A stretch of DNA of 64,000 nucleotides, taken from assembly GCF_056746865.1 (NCBI RefSeq), contig NZ_JBWKMP010000003.1, one strand, 5' to 3'. Position 1 is the stretch's first letter. Each line of letters starts with the position of its first letter. Source of the stretch: a plasmid. This document shows positions 18,452 through 61,565 of this stretch, piece by piece. A program made the position numbers and the translations under genes. The notes under the pieces were generated by a model. That model made no database searches, was not told where the DNA came from, and saw only the letters and a list, made by a program, of their open reading frames with translations.

Positions 18452-19447
18452 TCAGTTATTGAACGTGATCACTCCGCGCTCGATGGCGAAGTCGAAAAGC
18501 TGGTTGGCGGCTACGTAAAGGCGTATGCCATGTGCTTTTTCCCATGCCCGGACATCGTTTTCTGCGCTTCTGGCGCATTCATCGCAAAGAGGAACGGCCC
18601 AGCGATCGTGTTCGTTTAACGAGCGGGCGCGGTACATGAACGGGTGATTAACTTTGCCTCCGCATCCGATGCACGGACGAGAAATCACAAACCGGAGATA
18701 AGCCGGGCTTTTACCGAGAACCGCTTTTGGTCGGCGCATATACAGCAGGCCGGAATCCTCATCTACAGACAGGTTGACGATCTGCTCTGCGGTTATGTCC
18801 ACCAGCTCACGGGTGCTGTGCTCCCAGGTGATATCCGATTCTTTCAGTGTGCCGGTAGGGATTTCCTGTTTTGGCTGACAAAATGCAATGCGACCGGCTT
18901 CATCTGGCAGCTCGTCTTTCAGATTCCGGCGAATGGCCCAAAAAGTGAGTTCAACCATGCTCAGATCGCGTTCTGGCGGTAGTTTTAACTCGCTCGCAGC
19001 CCAGTTCATAACCCAGTTGGCACGATTCAGGGATAACTGGTCATCCAGCTTGCCGTACCCCTTCATCATGTATTCCGCATCATGCTTCCAGCACAGGCGA
19101 ACGGCAGAGCCGTTATAGAAATGAGTGGTTAGCTGGTGGCTGCAATCGCGCTTATCGTGCGCCTGGCAATCGTGGATATTGGAACTTACCCAATGAACAA
19201 GCGAATCTTCACCGCCTAATGCGTTAAATACGCGCTCGCTTTGAAAAAATGCTTTCAGAGACTGGTTGGCAACCAGCGAATAGTTCAGATCCACTACGCC
19301 ATCTGGCGTGTTTTCAGCCTGTTCGCGCGGAAGTGGAGAGATAATGAAACGGCGACCTGCGCCAATGTAGTTGCTGGTGGGCTTGTCTACCGGAAAGACA
19401 GCCACACCAGCTCCGTTTACGAAATGAGGTGTGATTATTGCACTCAT
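18452..19447 (-). CDS. hypothetical protein with DUF968/HNH-like cysteine-rich C-terminus
   Basis: 331 aa. C-terminus RPCIGCGGKVNHPF...WAVPLCDECARSAEND. First gene after the operator pair at 19489-19522. Confidence 0.5.
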   Translation of the reverse strand: MSAIITPHFVNGAGVAVFPVDKPTSNYIGAGRRFIISPLPREQAENTPDGVVDLNYSLVANQSLKAFFQSERVFNALGGEDSLVHWVSSNIHDCQAHDKRDCSHQLTTHFYNGSAVRLCWKHDAEYMMKGYGKLDDQLSLNRANWVMNWAASELKLPPERDLSMVELTFWAIRRNLKDELPDEAGRIAFCQPKQEIPTGTLKESDITWEHSTRELVDITAEQIVNLSVDEDSGLLYMRRPKAVLGKSPAYLRFVISRPCIGCGGKVNHPFMYRARSLNEHDRWAVPLCDECARSAENDVRAWEKAHGIRLYVAANQLFDFAIERGVITFNN

Positions 19448-47609: not shown

Positions 47610-47637
47610 AAGCCTCCCCATGCAAATGGGGAGGCTT
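47610..47637 (+). terminator. strong stem-loop after the Ig-like gene
   Basis: AAGCCTCCCCA (47610-47620) pairs with TGGGGAGGCTT (47627-47637). The downstream T-run is weak. Confidence 0.5.
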
Positions 47638-49327: not shown

Positions 49328-49370
49328 TTTATCTTCCCCGCTGAAACGCGGGGATGAATGAGGTTTCCTA

Positions 49371-51253: not shown

Positions 51254-51304
51254 TACCGATCCCGCTCAAAAGAGCGGGATTATCCCCCTCCGTCCGGAGT
51301 ATTT

Positions 51305-51869: not shown

Positions 51870-52577
51870 GTGAGTATTTTTAGTGCTACAACGCAAACGC
51901 TAGCCAGTGCGGTATCGTTTAGCGCGAAATCGTTCACCAGCAACCTTATCAGCGACATTCTGGATAGAGCGGTGTCTGGCAGTGGCGTTAGTGGGAGCTA
52001 CGGCAATGACATCGCTTACGGAAAGAACGTAGTTGCTACGGCTATGCGTATCCGCTATGCCCAGGGCTGGCAGTGGACGGTAGACGTAGACGGATTAAGC
52101 GGCTTTGATATGTTCGTTAAGGACATCACTTACAGTAGCGGGAATATTGAAACAGAAAGCAAAATCATTGGTAGCGTCGAGTTCAATAAGCCAACGCACG
52201 TAACCGCCGGGCCGGTAACAATGACGGTCAGAGACACAGAAGACGGCAAAATAATGAATTGGTTCAAAGAGCGCCGCGCTCGTGTAACCAATAGCGATGG
52301 TACGCTAAACCTGCCGCCAGATTATCTCATGAATATCAGGCTATACCGCGTTACACAGGAAGGCGGGAAAGAGCTGGAAGAGGAAATGCGTGTATTTCCG
52401 ACTCAGATAGGAGAGATCAGCCGCTCACGTGATCAGGTGTCCGAATTCTTGTCCTATCCGATCACGTTCCAGCGATACACATCTGCCGGTTCCGGCCTGT
52501 CCGCATTAGTCAATGGAGCTGCTGGTTTAGCAACAAGCGCACTTAAAAGCGCCGCCAGCAACGTGATCAAGTTTTGA
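51870..52577 (+). CDS. tube/baseplate-junction-like protein
   Basis: 235 aa from a GTG at 51870 (GGAGGG Shine-Dalgarno). Tube-family-like core (WQWTVDVDGLSGFDMFVKDITYSSGNIETE...GPVTMTVRDTEDGKI). Confidence 0.45.
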   Translation: MSIFSATTQTLASAVSFSAKSFTSNLISDILDRAVSGSGVSGSYGNDIAYGKNVVATAMRIRYAQGWQWTVDVDGLSGFDMFVKDITYSSGNIETESKIIGSVEFNKPTHVTAGPVTMTVRDTEDGKIMNWFKERRARVTNSDGTLNLPPDYLMNIRLYRVTQEGGKELEEEMRVFPTQIGEISRSRDQVSEFLSYPITFQRYTSAGSGLSALVNGAAGLATSALKSAASNVIKF

Positions 52578-52618
52578 AATGCAATATTAAAGTGCGAGAA
52601 GGTGGGGAAGGGGCAAAC

Positions 52619-52912
52619 TTGAGGGCAATATCTACACCTGCTGTTTACGTCAATGATGGCATTTTTTACACATCACAACAAAATCAACGCGTTACAACCA
52701 TAAAACATTCAACAGTAGTGCGATAAAAATAGCTATAGCATACGATGCCATCTGAGGGTGATTTTTACACATTCCTTATTAATCAATAAATTACAAATAA
52801 TGTTAGCCGTTAAAGATCCAACCAACTAACTAATGATGTAAGAATTGCCCTCAATCTCCCATCTTTAAGGGCAAATCCTACACCTACAGAGAGGTGTAGA
52901 AATTGCCCTTAA
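52619..52912. repeat. downstream iteron array (incA-like)
   Basis: Iteron consensus TGAGGGCAAatCTTACACCT. Plus-orientation copies at 52619-52640, 52752-52773 and 52865-52885, with a degenerate copy at 52654-52674. Minus-orientation copies at 52835-52854 and 52892-52912. Confidence 0.7.
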
Positions 52913-53664
52913 GACTGCTGATAGGTGAATTTTATTTTTGTAACTCTGCCACCTTCTGTAACCTCTGAGAAAACTATTTTCATTTTTGTGTTTTTTTCGA
53001 TTTCAGCTACAGCTTTTGCCAGAAAGCTTCTCTTAAATTCGGCGTACCGTTGATAGCTTTTGGGAAGACCATAACGCTCCCGCATCCATTCAACGCCAAG
53101 TATAGCGAAGCCGCTCCCATCATCCTTTCTATACTGGCATAAGGACTCATAAAGCCGCATAGAATAAGGGTTTGTCAGGCGAGACACTTCAGTAAAATTC
53201 AGCCTCGTGAACCTCTTATCAAGCAGAGTAAAAAACGGCATGAGATATGGATTCAGATGAATAATGTAAGTCCCCCGGCGTGGTGAGTAAGCCTCCTTAA
53301 TCATCCAGGGATAAGACTCATAACTGTCTTCTGATTCGGTTGATTCATCAGGGTTATATATCGTGACTTTCTTCTCACTAAGTCCGGAGATAGCTTTACG
53401 AATATCCTTGCTGGCTTCAGCAGAGGGCAAATTATACATCTCTGCATATTCGTTGACCGTCAACTCACAGGCACCTGAACCAAGAACGCCATCCTTAGAA
53501 GCATAGCGAAGTCTTCCCACCACAATAAACAACAGTCGCTTTTGGTCGCGTGTCAGGTGATAAGCCGCCTCTGTGATCTCATTGGCCTGCGCCAAGCTAC
53601 GGCTAATTGGTGTCGCTGATTCAATCAGACTGACGGCTTTTGCCGTTAATTCCGCTCTGTTCAT
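52909..53664 (-). CDS. repA: iteron-binding replication initiator RepA (Rep_3 family)
   Basis: 251 aa from MNRAELTAK. Flanked on both sides by roughly 20-bp iterons. Winged-helix Rep pattern (LTRDQKRLLFIVV..., NPYSMRLYESLCQY...). Confidence 0.85.
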   Translation of the reverse strand: MNRAELTAKAVSLIESATPISRSLAQANEITEAAYHLTRDQKRLLFIVVGRLRYASKDGVLGSGACELTVNEYAEMYNLPSAEASKDIRKAISGLSEKKVTIYNPDESTESEDSYESYPWMIKEAYSPRRGTYIIHLNPYLMPFFTLLDKRFTRLNFTEVSRLTNPYSMRLYESLCQYRKDDGSGFAILGVEWMRERYGLPKSYQRYAEFKRSFLAKAVAEIEKNTKMKIVFSEVTEGGRVTKIKFTYQQS

Positions 53665-53687
53665 AACCCTGTGTGATCCTTCAAATG

Positions 53688-53807
53688 GTGAGGGCAATTT
53701 TTACATCACTTTGAGGGCAATTACTACACCTTTTGAGGGCAAATCTTACACCTGCTGAGGGCAAATCTTACACCTCAATAGCTTAATTGAGGGCAAATCT
53801 TACACCT
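53688..53807. repeat. five direct iterons over the repA promoter (incC/origin-like)
   Basis: Copies at 53688-53708, 53711-53731, 53733-53753, 53755-53775 and 53787-53807. The three central copies are spaced exactly 22 bp apart. Confidence 0.8.
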
Positions 53808-53839
53808 TGGTCCTCTACAAGCCCCGCCACCCCTGGCCT

Positions 53840-53990
53840 CCGCGATGCCTAAAAAGGATCTAAAAAGGATTAAAAAGAGAAAAAGGTTTATAAAAATACT
53901 CTGTGGATATGTGAATTGCGTCACTTAAGGTGTAAAAATCACCCTCAATAGTTGCTGTTCGATCGACAAAGATCCTTATTCAATACTCCC
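53840..53990. other. oriR: probable replication origin core
   Basis: AT-rich with an AAAAAGGAT(C) triple repeat (53851-53885). DnaA-box-like TGTGGATAT (53902-53910). Inverted iteron at 53927-53948. GATC sites at 53857, 53961 and 53972. Confidence 0.5.
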
Positions 53991-54050
53991 ACAAATCACA
54001 CACTCCCTATCCTCTGAAAAACTAACTGAACCTAGCTTTCGGAGGAATCC

Positions 54051-54875
54051 TTGAACATTCCCAAATTCCCATTGCCTTCACAGCCTGAAATAGAAATTCA
54101 GTTTCATGCACCTACTGTGAAAGATGCCCTGAAATATTCAGACATCAATCCGGCAGAAGACGAGGCAACCACAACAGAATACCTCAATGCTATGCAAGAC
54201 GGCGAAATTAACGACAGCTCAAACTGGACAGTTCAGGATCGCAGAACCGCGCTTTGGTGGATCTTTGTTAATTCCAGGCCTGATGCCGTCATGACTTACT
54301 CATACGAGTGTGGTCACTGTGGAAACGTTCATCACGCAGATATTAACCTTTCAGACCTTGCCGAAACGGTAGAAATCCTGACTGTCCCGCCGTTTATTAA
54401 AACTATGGTCCCTATAAACGGAGTACCAACCGAGTGGACGCTTAAACCACTAACAGGGAAAGGAGCTGAATTGCTTGAGCGTATGCGCGCCACTTTGCCT
54501 GATATGAAAACTCCAGAGTACAGTGCTGAGGTTGCTCGTCTCCGCATAGCTGAGTTGGCCTTGTGTACATCTCTGAACGACGATCCAGAAGACTTCACAC
54601 AAGCTGCAAACAGACGATTCGATATCATTGAAAACATGGCTCTGGAAACCGAGTTTACCCCTCTGGTAGCTCGCATTCAGCTCATGCAGAAAGACCTTCG
54701 CCACGGCTTAAAAATGGCTATTGAACGAGGCACAAGCCGCCTGATCCTACCGCCACAACGCTGCAAAAACGCTAAGGAGGGTGCAGACGTGACTACCACG
54801 CTGTACGCCCCATTTCTCAATAGAGAGTTTATCCCATCAATTAGATCTGAATGGATGGCTAACCATTATCAATAA
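54051..54875 (+). CDS. putative tail assembly chaperone (gene immediately upstream of the tape measure)
   Basis: 274 aa. TTG start with a GGAGGA Shine-Dalgarno. CGHCG zinc-like motif. The +1 frame stays open across its stop (see findings). Confidence 0.4.
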   Translation: MNIPKFPLPSQPEIEIQFHAPTVKDALKYSDINPAEDEATTTEYLNAMQDGEINDSSNWTVQDRRTALWWIFVNSRPDAVMTYSYECGHCGNVHHADINLSDLAETVEILTVPPFIKTMVPINGVPTEWTLKPLTGKGAELLERMRATLPDMKTPEYSAEVARLRIAELALCTSLNDDPEDFTQAANRRFDIIENMALETEFTPLVARIQLMQKDLRHGLKMAIERGTSRLILPPQRCKNAKEGADVTTTLYAPFLNREFIPSIRSEWMANHYQ

Positions 54876-61449: not shown

Positions 61450-61565
61450 CAAACCAGGCCCCGCCAACCTGGGTGGGGCCATTTCTCAAAACAAAAGACC
61501 ACTGGAAATCACAAACTGAACATACTGCCCTTCGATTTATTGCTTGTTAAAGGGGCTATGTTCGT

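What the first reader, a model, noticed from the sequence alone, without database searches (positions are those of the whole stretch)
52578..54050. Iteron replicon (repA with incA-like and incC-like arrays and an origin core) embedded inside the tail gene cluster
The minus-strand repA and its arrays sit between the tube/junction genes (ending at 52577) and the chaperone and tape-measure genes (starting at 54051). All of those neighbours are on the plus strand.

Iteron consensus: TGAGGGCAAATCTTACACCT.
- Five direct copies overlap the repA promoter (53688-53807). Three of them are spaced exactly 22 bp apart.
- One inverted copy (53927-53948) closes an AT-rich core that has an AAAAAGGAT(C) triple repeat, a DnaA-box-like TGTGGATAT (53902-53910) and GATC sites.
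- Five to six copies in both orientations lie downstream of repA (52619-52912).

This mirrors the P1 oriR/incC-repA-incA logic. Its placement means that late transcription of the tail operon must either terminate and re-initiate around the replicon or read through it antisense to repA. That would be a potential switch shutting off plasmid-mode replication during lytic growth.
Basis: partly seen in the sequence, partly recalled or inferred. Interest (0 to 1): 0.5.

Follow-up and report, generated by a model that had tools for sequence, protein, structure and literature searches.

The report
Plasmid replicon inside phage tail genes
This is the plasmid-maintenance origin of a D6-like phage-plasmid, a mini-F RepE-type replicon that was already annotated and published, although related elements carry other replicon types in the same slot between two tail genes.

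Summary
A minus-strand Rep_3 initiator gene (52909-53664) has five origin iterons directly upstream. Beyond them lie a GC-rich spacer, an AT-rich stretch, a DnaA box and one inverted iteron. Six more iterons lie downstream of the gene.

The replicon is homologous to mini-F RepE/ori2, not to P1 RepA/oriR. It is the known D6-type replicon. It sits at the same tub|pmgB position in phage D6, in about 110 plasmid records and in 17 of the IMG/VR contigs found with Rep. A 2019 paper already says the D6-like repB is "associated with iteron sequences".

The cassette lies between two late transcription units. An invariant late-promoter-like motif (53993-54013) sits directly upstream of pmgB. No terminator follows tub in this lineage, so antisense readthrough is possible. 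The proposed "switch" is untested.

One additional result came from the relatives. Near-identical D6-like elements carry a P1 RepA/IncY-like or a p0111-like replicon in the same slot and orientation. Leftover iterons of the displaced replicon remain next to tub.

The finding itself is already known, and I score its interest as low to moderate.

The parts
51870..52577 (+). tub-like major tail tube gene; last gene of the upstream late unit
   Evidence: RefSeq CDS in the 99.9%-identical plasmid pMUB-MIN14-1. D6 orf43 is annotated 'similar to P1 tub'.
52620..52639 (+). downstream-array iteron d1 (TGAGGGCAATATCTACACCT)
   Evidence: conserved in relatives
52654..52673 (+). downstream-array iteron d2, degenerate (TGATGGCATTTTTTACACAT)
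52682..52694 (+). IHF-consensus site 1 (AATCAACGCGTTA)
   Evidence: Only 3 matches to WATCAANNNNTTR occur in the whole window, and 2 of them lie in this array. The ATCAA and TTA columns are invariant in relatives. Function is inferred.
52753..52772 (+). downstream-array iteron d3, variant class (TGAGGGTGATTTTTACACAT); contains TTTTACACA, which matches the relaxed DnaA-box consensus
   Evidence: 95% complementary to the inverted origin-side iteron (pair I4)
52781..52793 (+). IHF-consensus site 2 (AATCAATAAATTA)
52834..52853 (-). downstream-array iteron d4 (inverted)
52866..52885 (+). downstream-array iteron d5
52892..52911 (-). downstream-array iteron d6 (inverted); overlaps the rep stop codon
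52909..53664 (-). rep: RepE-like Rep_3 replication initiator, 251 aa
   Evidence: Pfam PF01051 and PF21205. PDB RepE chains match at E about 1e-73. NCBIfam RepE scores 281 bits, below the 342-bit cutoff. 98.4% identical to D6 orf42.
53422..53441 (+). iteron-like copy inside rep (AGAGGGCAAATTATACATCT)
   Evidence: The same in-gene copy occurs in the Pantoea and Erwinia homologues. Its function is unknown.
53689..53807 (+). five origin iterons, starting at 53689, 53712, 53734, 53756 and 53788; the proximal one ends 24 nt from the rep ATG
   Evidence: 0.99 pairwise identity in relatives
53808..53848 (.). GC-rich spacer (71% G+C) between the iterons and the AT-rich region
   Evidence: The same element occurs in mini-F and in the Pantoea and Erwinia origins.
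53849..53900 (.). AT-rich region (79% A+T) with AAAAAGGAT-type repeats; the presumed unwinding element
   Evidence: It aligns with the mini-F ATTTTTATAA...TTTTTAGATC stretch. 0.97 conserved.
53902..53910 (-). DnaA box ATATCCACA (8 of 9 positions match the consensus)
   Evidence: Invariant in relatives. Occupies the same position as the DnaA boxes of mini-F and of the Pantoea and Erwinia plasmids.
53928..53947 (-). inverted iteron beyond the DnaA box (variant class); absent from the mini-F, Pantoea and Erwinia origins
53993..54013 (+). late-promoter-like motif AAATCACACACT-ccc-TATCCT; marks the right edge of the replicon cassette
   Evidence: 4 exact box matches in the window against 0.11 expected, all upstream of plus-strand late genes. 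D6 copies lie upstream of R, lydA, mat, the major capsid gene, upfC and pmgB. The 21-mer is identical in 24 loci. Function is inferred.
54051..54875 (+). pmgB-like gene; first gene of the downstream late unit (pmgB-sit-pmgA-bplA-16)

Best explanation
What it is. This is the prophage-plasmid (lysogenic-mode) replicon of a D6-like P1-family phage-plasmid. It is a self-contained cassette of about 1.4 kb (roughly 52620-53992) belonging to the mini-F RepE / Rep_3 iteron family.

How it most likely works. These steps are inferred from the family, not shown here.
1. Rep monomers bind the five 22-bp-phased origin iterons.
2. With host DnaA at the adjacent box, they open the AT-rich stretch and start theta replication at low copy number.
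3. The six downstream iterons, flanked by IHF-type bend sites, and the extra inverted iteron titrate Rep and pair with the origin ('handcuffing'). This sets copy number and incompatibility.
4. rep is autoregulated, because its promoter must lie within or behind the iteron array.

Where it sits. The cassette occupies a slot between two late transcription units, ...pmgC-tub and pmgB-sit.... The second unit has its own Lpa-type late promoter at the cassette edge. Tail-gene expression therefore does not need to cross the replicon.

The slot is exchangeable. Otherwise near-identical D6-like elements carry a P1 RepA/IncY-like or a p0111-like replicon there, in the same orientation. Replaced replicons leave iteron remnants next to tub.
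For: Identity of the initiator:
- Rep_3 WH1 and WH2 domains.
- About 50% identity to mini-F RepE crystal-structure chains, E 2e-73.

Homology of the origin:
- The layout is collinear with mini-F ori2 and with Pantoea and Erwinia plasmid homologues (61-63% Rep identity). The order is DnaA box, AT-rich stretch, GC spacer, TTGCCCTCA-type iterons at 22 bp, rep, then a downstream iteron array.

The iterons are real and under selection:
- 13 clustered copies against 0.15 expected by chance.
- They are conserved while the spacers between them diverge.

It is the replicon these plasmids are typed by:
- D6 has the same tub-rep-pmgB arrangement, annotated as a putative plasmid replication initiator.
- About 110 circular plasmids of about 90 kb match. 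The five whose typing I read carry rep_cluster_1704 as their only listed replicon.
- pSO21_75, a natural 75-kb variant lacking a ~15-kb block of baseplate, tail tube, tail fibre, lysis and antirestriction modules, still carries it (PMC6799933).
- Published statement for a D6-like plasmid: 'repB associated with iteron sequences' (PMC6799933).

Late promoter at the cassette edge. The box resembles the -22 box of P1 LPsit, AAATGACTA.

Replicon exchange in the slot:
- L036 and pE2863-2 carry a RepA 84% identical to P1 RepA, with P1-type iterons, GATC repeats and a DnaA box.
- L033 and NZ_CP085065 carry a p0111-like RepA, 85% identical to those of JL22, SJ46 and RCS47. Their pmgC and pmgB protein accessions are identical to those of the window-type plasmid.
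- L033 retains the window-type downstream array and the last 14 nt of the window-type rep.
- D6 and pEF-4 retain P1-type iterons after tub.
Against: - No experiment in hand shows autonomous replication, copy control or incompatibility for this cassette.
- The rep promoter was not identified.
- The mini-F inverted-repeat operator is absent, so autoregulation may differ from mini-F.
- The late-promoter assignment rests on motif statistics and on positions shared with P1, not on transcript data.
- The D6 genome paper (Gilcrease & Casjens 2018) could not be read, so I do not know what it already says.
Confidence: 0.85

Rival explanations
1. Late transcription from the head and tail unit reads past tub, through the control array, antisense across rep and into the origin. 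This shuts off, or otherwise reprograms, plasmid-mode replication during lytic growth.
For: - No hairpin or intrinsic terminator follows tub in this lineage (fold z = +0.94; scan).
- All three replicon types found in the slot have rep antiparallel to the late genes.
- Other late-unit boundaries in the window do have strong hairpins, for example 61457-61480.
Against: - pmgB has its own conserved late-promoter-like motif, so readthrough is not needed for tail expression.
- The plus-strand RNA across the cassette would be untranslated and richer in C than in G (GC skew about -0.1). That favours Rho-dependent termination, which is an inference.
- The shared orientation could simply reflect how the cassettes were exchanged.
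- Lytic replication in this family uses a separate repL replicon (D6 orf20), so there is no evident need to silence oriR-type initiation.
- There are no transcript data.
Confidence: 0.12
2. The cassette is a decaying or non-functional remnant, and the element is maintained by some other replicon.
For: Relic iteron arrays do exist in this slot in relatives, so remnants are plausible in principle.
Against: - The rep ORF is intact and 98-100% conserved across more than 100 records.
- Iterons, DnaA box and AT-rich stretch are selectively conserved.
- D6 is annotated with no other plasmid-type initiator.
- The five plasmids whose typing I read list only this replicon cluster.
- True relics in the slot look different: the rep gene and the origin are gone.
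Confidence: 0.03
3. The iteron arrays act mainly as a Rep-dependent transcriptional roadblock or insulator between the two late units, with replication control secondary.
For: Arrays flank both ends of the cassette, and one lies directly after tub where no terminator exists.
Against: - The same two-array layout occurs in ordinary Pantoea and Erwinia plasmids and in mini-F, which have no phage context.
- It is the standard copy-control architecture of the family.
- There is no direct evidence for this function.
Confidence: 0.05

Closest known systems
mini-F (RepFIA) ori2 / incB - repE - incC replicon
   Same: - The initiator is homologous: about 50% identity, the same WH1 and WH2 domains, and the best PDB matches are RepE chains.
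- The origin has the same parts in the same order: DnaA box(es), an AT-rich stretch with TTTTTAGATC, a GC-rich spacer, then direct iterons at 22 bp sharing the TTGCCCTCA core.
- There is a second iteron array downstream of rep.
   Different: - It scores below the NCBIfam RepE equivalog cutoff (281 against 342 bits).
- It has five origin iterons abutting the ATG, with no inverted-repeat operator between them and rep.
- It has one good DnaA box instead of two.
- It has an extra inverted iteron beyond the DnaA box.
- The downstream array is compact (six copies in about 300 bp) and of mixed orientation, with two IHF-type sites.
- There is no adjacent sopABC. The partition genes lie more than 10 kb away.
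- It is embedded among phage late genes.
P1 oriR (incC - repA - incA), IncY
   Same: - The logic is the same. Five origin iterons lie next to rep and a second array downstream acts as a copy-control and incompatibility locus. RepA binds two iteron groups flanking repA (PMC10999674; P1 annotation).
- As in P1, the rep promoter must overlap or lie behind the origin iterons.
- Sibling D6-like elements carry a genuine P1-type replicon in this very slot.
   Different: - There is no detectable sequence similarity between this Rep and P1-type RepA.
- The iteron sequence is different.
- The five-GATC heptamer cluster is absent; only one GATC lies in the AT-rich stretch.
- It is not adjacent to parAB.
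D6 orf42 replicon, also called the 'repB' replicon of D6-like plasmid prophages (MOB-suite rep_cluster_1704)
   Same: - It is the same replicon: Rep is 98.4% identical.
- It has the same tub-rep-pmgB position and orientation.
- Iterons were already noted for pYU39_89 (PMC6799933).
   Different: - Compared with D6, the left half of the downstream array has diverged.
- This lineage has lost the 63-nt segment after tub that carries relic P1-type iterons in D6 and in the other RepE-type loci outside the window lineage.
IncY / p0111 replicon alternation in P1-group phage-plasmids
   Same: Alternative, mutually divergent iteron replicons replace one another on an otherwise conserved phage-plasmid backbone (PMC9603915, PMC11165635). 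Replicases are absent from the conserved P1-like gene set, and the authors suggest this may avoid incompatibility (PMC10879196).
   Different: - In the P1 group the exchange happens next to parAB. Here it happens in the tub|pmgB slot inside the tail cluster.
- Here it involves three types: RepE-like, IncY-like and p0111-like.
- The D6-group versions are only 84-85% identical in protein to the P1-group ones.
- I found no open-access description of this for D6-like elements.

Membership tests
Rep_3 / mini-F RepE-type iteron replicon | Initiator with Rep_3 WH1 and WH2 winged-helix domains | tested here: met
   PF01051 E 2e-29 and PF21205 E 3e-15, both above their gathering scores
Rep_3 / mini-F RepE-type iteron replicon | Sequence homology to RepE of mini-F | tested here: met
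   PDB chains 1REP, 2Z9O and 7UXY match at E 2e-73 to 5e-74 over residues 21-249. About 50% identity to repE of IncFIA plasmids.
Rep_3 / mini-F RepE-type iteron replicon | Equivalog-level identity with RepE (NCBIfam NF010305) | tested here: not met
   281.4 bits against a cutoff of 342. It is a sister lineage, not RepFIA itself.
Rep_3 / mini-F RepE-type iteron replicon | Origin made of DnaA box(es), an AT-rich stretch and tandem direct iterons of about 19-22 bp at helical phasing, upstream of rep | tested here: met
   Collinear with mini-F ori2 and with the Pantoea and Erwinia homologues.
Rep_3 / mini-F RepE-type iteron replicon | Second iteron cluster downstream of rep (incC of F) | tested here: met
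   Six copies at 52620-52911. Mini-F and the Pantoea and Erwinia plasmids have the equivalent.
Rep_3 / mini-F RepE-type iteron replicon | Inverted-repeat operator between the iterons and rep, for dimer autorepression as in mini-F | tested here: not met
   Only 24 nt separate the last iteron from the ATG, and they contain no inverted half-iterons. The Pantoea and Erwinia homologues share this layout.
Rep_3 / mini-F RepE-type iteron replicon | Autonomous replication, Rep-iteron binding, copy control and incompatibility | not testable with these tools
   Requires cloning, plasmid maintenance and incompatibility assays.
P1 oriR / RepA (IncY) | Initiator homologous to P1 RepA | tested here: not met
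   tblastn of the window Rep against the phage collection, which includes P1, gives no P1 hit at E<=1e-5. BLASTP against a RepA 84% identical to P1 RepA gives E 0.05.
P1 oriR / RepA (IncY) | P1-type 19-bp iterons (GATGTGTGCTGGAGGGAAA type) | tested here: not met
   The window iterons are of the TGAGGGCAAATCTTACACCT type. The P1-type core pattern was searched in the fetched loci only; the window's near-identical plasmid (L002) and the other window-lineage loci have no copy, and none is visible in the window sequence 52300-54400.
P1 oriR / RepA (IncY) | Five GATC (Dam) sites in the AT-rich part of the origin | tested here: not met
   The window has one GATC in the AT-rich stretch and two further out, against five annotated in P1.
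P1 oriR / RepA (IncY) | Layout: five origin iterons, rep, then a downstream control array | tested here: met
   Five upstream and six downstream copies. This is shared logic, not homology.
D6-type phage-plasmid replicon (rep_cluster_1704) | Rep nearly identical to D6 orf42, located between tub and pmgB on the opposite strand | tested here: met
   98.4% identity. The context is the same in D6 and in four plasmids inspected.
PlasmidFinder p0111 replicon | RepA of the JL22 / SJ46 / RCS47 type | tested here: not met
   Those phages are not hit by the window Rep. Typing databases do not include the D6 rep (10.1101/2025.09.12.675607). A p0111-like RepA does occupy the slot in L033 and NZ_CP085065 in place of this Rep.

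The most novel reading that the evidence does not exclude
The tub|pmgB junction of D6-like phage-plasmids may be a dedicated, orientation-locked docking slot for interchangeable iteron replicons (RepE-like, P1 RepA/IncY-like, p0111-like), bounded on the right by the pmgB late promoter.

Two functional claims follow from this reading:
1. Each replacement leaves iterons of the displaced replicon. These could still act as incompatibility determinants against rival phage-plasmids, such as P1/IncY or D6-type elements.
2. The antiparallel orientation could be selected so that late readthrough from tub silences plasmid-mode replication during lytic growth.

The exchange and the relics themselves are shown here. 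The functional claims are not.
Probability: 0.2. Interest if true: 0.55.

Novelty: already known. Interest (0 to 1): 0.3.

Why it matters
D6-like phage-plasmids are widespread in E. coli, Shigella and Salmonella, and standard replicon-typing schemes miss them (10.1101/2025.09.12.675607).

This work has three practical uses:
- Knowing that the D6 replicon is a RepE-family iteron replicon, with a defined origin, control array and cassette boundaries, gives a concrete target for typing, incompatibility prediction and curing.
- Three replicon types alternate in one slot. A rep-based screen for D6-like elements will therefore miss a minority of them: 11 of about 120 in PLSDB and 5 of 22 in IMG/VR.
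- The leftover iterons provide a readable order of replicon replacements.

None of this changes the understanding of iteron replication itself.

Tried and rejected
1. p0111 assignment. I first assumed this Rep was the PlasmidFinder 'p0111' type. That is wrong. The p0111-type phages (JL22, SJ46, RCS47) are not hit by it. A 2025 preprint states that the D6 rep is absent from typing databases. MOB-suite assigns it rep_cluster_1704.

2. First late-promoter candidate. A candidate at 54020-54038, found by matching the P1 consensus AAGTTACTT-N4-TANNNT, was dropped because its -10 element is not conserved in D6. It was replaced by the invariant motif at 53993-54013.

3. rep promoter. Scans for a sigma-70 promoter on the rep strand found nothing at 9/12 or 8/12 matches.

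4. Terminators. The intrinsic-terminator scan found nothing convincing flanking the cassette.

5. Hairpin after tub. I first read the hairpin after tub in D6 and pEF-4 as a terminator. It is an inverted pair of relic P1-type iterons.

6. GATC enrichment. This is not supported: 4.4 per kb in the region against 3.4 per kb in the window, and the sites are poorly conserved.

7. Rfam. The only match is a spurious sub-threshold miRNA hit on the inverted iteron pair.

8. Papers not held. The D6 genome paper (PMC5800970) and the P1 genome paper (PMC523184) are not in the library.

9. More distant relatives. Protein-anchored searches returned only close D6-like relatives (90% or more pmgB identity) plus three ordinary-plasmid Rep homologues. 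The age of the slot beyond the D6 group could therefore not be assessed.

10. pSa1423-90k (L030). Its annotation is fragmented into very short ORFs, so it was left out of the alignments.
Full report
**1. What the window is**

The 64-kb window is part of a D6-like phage-plasmid of the P1 family.
- The region 52400-54200 is 99.9% identical to E. coli plasmids of about 90 kb, such as pMUB-MIN14-1.
- It is 89.5% identical to phage D6 over 76% of its length.
- In D6 the gene order is the same: tub (orf43), then orf42 on the opposite strand, then pmgB (orf41) and sit. D6 orf42 is annotated 'similar to P1 gene repA?; pfam01051; putative plasmid replication initiation'.

**2. Check of the observation**

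The minus-strand ORF 52909-53664 (251 aa) matches Rep3_N and Rep3_C well above threshold.

There are 13 copies between 52620 and 53947 and one elsewhere in the window. Shuffled windows give 0.15 on average.
- Five direct copies start at 53689, 53712, 53734, 53756 and 53788. The last ends 24 nt from the ATG.
- One inverted copy is at 53928-53947.
- Six copies in both orientations lie at 52620-52911.
- One further copy lies inside rep.

The AT-rich stretch, the AAAAAGGAT repeats and TGTGGATAT (the reverse complement of ATATCCACA, 8 of 9 positions of a DnaA box) are all present. GATC sites are present but not enriched.

In alignments with D6, p1_000837, E. fergusonii pEF-4 and pPSS-10_3 the iterons are conserved while the spacers drift. 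Pairwise identity is 0.90 against 0.65 downstream of rep and 0.99 against 0.83 on the origin side.

**3. Which family it belongs to**

The Rep is a close relative of mini-F RepE.
- PDB chains 1REP, 2Z9O and 7UXY match at E about 1e-73.
- It is about 50% identical to repE of IncFIA plasmids.
- It falls below the NCBIfam RepE equivalog cutoff, so it is a sister lineage rather than RepFIA itself.

Read on the rep strand, the origin is collinear with mini-F ori2:
- a DnaA box;
- ATTTTTATAA...TTTTTAGATC;
- a GC-rich spacer;
- iterons sharing the TTGCCCTCA core, at 22-bp spacing;
- rep;
- a downstream array.

Ordinary plasmids of Pantoea and Erwinia, whose Rep proteins are 61-63% identical, have the same plan. 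They carry two DnaA boxes, five iterons abutting rep, the same in-gene iteron-like copy, and 7 to 14 downstream copies.

By contrast, the window Rep has no detectable similarity to P1-type RepA. The comparison with P1 therefore holds for logic only. In P1, RepA binds two iteron groups that flank repA (PMC10999674; P1 annotation).

Differences from mini-F:
- there is no inverted-repeat operator;
- there is one extra inverted iteron beyond the DnaA box;
- the downstream array is compact and of mixed orientation, and contains two conserved IHF-consensus sites;
- there is no adjacent partition operon. In D6 the StbA/StbB and ParA-like genes lie about 11 kb away.

**4. Is it known?**

Yes.
- The gene is annotated in D6 and in RefSeq plasmids as a RepB-family initiator.
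- It is used as the D6 marker 'repB' in surveillance work (10.1101/2025.09.12.675607).
- It is not the p0111 replicon.

About 110 PLSDB records carry it. The four well-annotated plasmids I inspected, and D6, have the same tub-rep-pmgB context. A natural 75-kb deletion variant that lacks a ~15-kb block of baseplate, tail tube, tail fibre, lysis and antirestriction modules still retains it (PMC6799933).

**5. Relation to late transcription**

In P1, tub and pmgB are 14 bp apart inside one operon driven by LPsit. The cassette therefore does interrupt what is a single unit in P1.

I found a 12-nt box, AAATMACAMAST, followed 3 nt later by a -10-like hexamer.
- It has 4 exact copies in the window against 0.11 expected. 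All are on the plus strand and intergenic. They lie directly upstream of upfC, the major capsid gene, pmgB and R.
- One-mismatch copies lie upstream of mat and of gene 7.
- In D6 the six exact copies lie upstream of lydA, R, pmgB, the major capsid gene, upfC and mat. P1 has its late promoters LPdar and LPs upstream of lydA and R.
- The box resembles the -22 box of P1 LPsit, AAATGACTA.
- The copy at 53993-54013 is identical in all 24 D6-type loci examined.

I infer that pmgB-sit has its own Lpa-type late promoter at the right edge of the cassette. Tail expression then re-initiates there and does not have to cross the replicon.

On the left side no terminator follows tub in this lineage. Plus-strand readthrough, antisense to rep, therefore cannot be excluded. 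Rho-dependent termination of this untranslated RNA, which is richer in C than in G, is plausible (inference). The 'switch' idea remains untested.

**6. What the relatives add**

I anchored a search on pmgB instead of Rep. Five of the 22 IMG/VR loci it returned lack the window-type iterons.

IncY-like type:
- In L036, L046 and L050, and in nine PLSDB plasmid records (pE2863-2 inspected in detail), the slot holds a RepA 84% identical to P1 RepA.
- It comes with P1-type iterons, the GATC repeats and a DnaA box.

p0111-like type:
- In L033 and L034, and in two PLSDB plasmid records, the slot holds a RepA 85% identical to the p0111-type RepA of JL22, SJ46 and RCS47.
- NZ_CP085065 is one of these complete plasmids. 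Its pmgC and pmgB protein accessions are identical to those of the window-type plasmid.

All three replicon types have rep on the minus strand and the origin next to pmgB.

Remnants record the order of events:
- L033 still carries the window-type downstream array and the last 14 nt of the window-type rep. Its right breakpoint lies immediately left of the late-promoter box.
- D6, pEF-4 and the other RepE-type loci outside the window lineage keep one or two P1-type iterons just after tub. These are homologous to the incA-like array of L036.
- The window lineage has deleted that segment.

The slot has therefore been occupied successively: IncY-like first, then RepE-like, then p0111-like in one sublineage. 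Replicase exchange is known in general for P1-group elements (PMC9603915, PMC11165635, PMC10879196). I found no open-access description of it for this slot in D6-like elements. The D6 genome paper could not be read.

**7. Verdict**

The replicon interpretation is right in kind, but the family is mini-F RepE rather than P1. The feature itself is already annotated and published.

The transcription-switch idea is neither supported nor excluded. The evidence favours independent late units. The replicon-exchange slot with layered iteron relics is the only moderately new point, and it fits a known pattern in phage-plasmids.

Noticed in passing
L033:1773-3500, L036:2052-3500, L055 (pE2863-2), L056 (NZ_CP085065); corresponds to window 52578-53992: Otherwise near-identical D6-like elements carry a P1 RepA/IncY-like replicon (84% identical to P1 RepA) or a p0111-like replicon (85% identical to JL22 and SJ46 RepA) in the same tub|pmgB slot and the same orientation. 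Counts: PLSDB has about 110 RepE-type, 9 IncY-like and 2 p0111-like records. The pmgB-anchored IMG/VR loci split 17 / 3 / 2.
   Followed up: yes
L001:7706-7745 (D6), L029:2888-2950 (pEF-4); the equivalent would lie at about window 52596, where it is deleted: The 'hairpin' after tub in D6-type relatives is an inverted pair of relic P1-type iterons (ATGTGTGCTGGAGGG ... CCCGTCAGCAC), homologous to the incA-like array of the IncY-like variant. The window lineage has lost it through a 63-nt deletion.
   Followed up: yes
L033:1813-2020: The p0111-like variant keeps five window-type downstream iterons and the last 14 nt of the window-type rep gene. It also has a 99-bp deletion that fuses two of those iterons. 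Whether such relic arrays still exert incompatibility is unknown.
   Followed up: partly
window 28702, 32626, 42665, 45419, 53993, 61506 (all + strand): A recurrent motif, AAATCACA(A/C)A(C/G/T)T-N3-nAnnnT, lies directly upstream of mat, gene 7, upfC, the major capsid gene, pmgB and R. It is probably the D6-type Lpa-dependent late promoter. There are 4 exact copies against 0.11 expected.
   Followed up: partly
window 52682-52694 and 52781-52793: Two IHF-consensus sites (WATCAANNNNTTR) lie inside the downstream iteron array, each just after an iteron. They are conserved in relatives. Only one other match exists in the 64 kb.
   Followed up: partly
window 53422-53441: An iteron-like sequence lies inside the rep coding region, over the codons for MYNLPSAE. 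The same in-gene copy is present in the Pantoea and Erwinia plasmid homologues (L009:5202-5217, L010:5222-5238).
   Followed up: no
window 52664-52672, 52763-52771, 53929-53937: The 'variant' iterons (TGAGGGTGATTTTTACAC type) contain TTTTACAC(A/C), which fits the relaxed DnaA-box consensus TTWTNCACA (one mismatch in the 53929-53937 copy). One lies in the downstream array and one, inverted, lies beyond the origin. These two are 95% complementary to each other.
   Followed up: no
window 19427-19446 (- strand): This is the only iteron-like match (5 mismatches) outside the replicon. It is probably a chance match.
   Followed up: no
window ~47611-47637, ~49336-49354, 51258-51281, 61457-61480: Strong GC-rich hairpins lie between late structural genes: after the Ig-like gene, after the sheath gene, after bplB and after gene 16. 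No such hairpin follows tub.
   Followed up: partly
L008 (CALWLV010000256.1): An 11-kb contig carrying this D6-type replicon at 98% Rep identity is deposited as an 'uncultured Roseburia sp.' MAG. This is almost certainly a mis-binned enterobacterial phage-plasmid contig.
   Followed up: no
L057 (Cronobacter phage JK004, MZ188976 21462-22322): The closest phage RepA to the IncY-like slot variant (92% identity) is in Cronobacter phage JK004. There it is followed by two genes whose sizes suggest parA and parB (not checked), which would be the P1-type context rather than the tail-cluster slot.
   Followed up: partly
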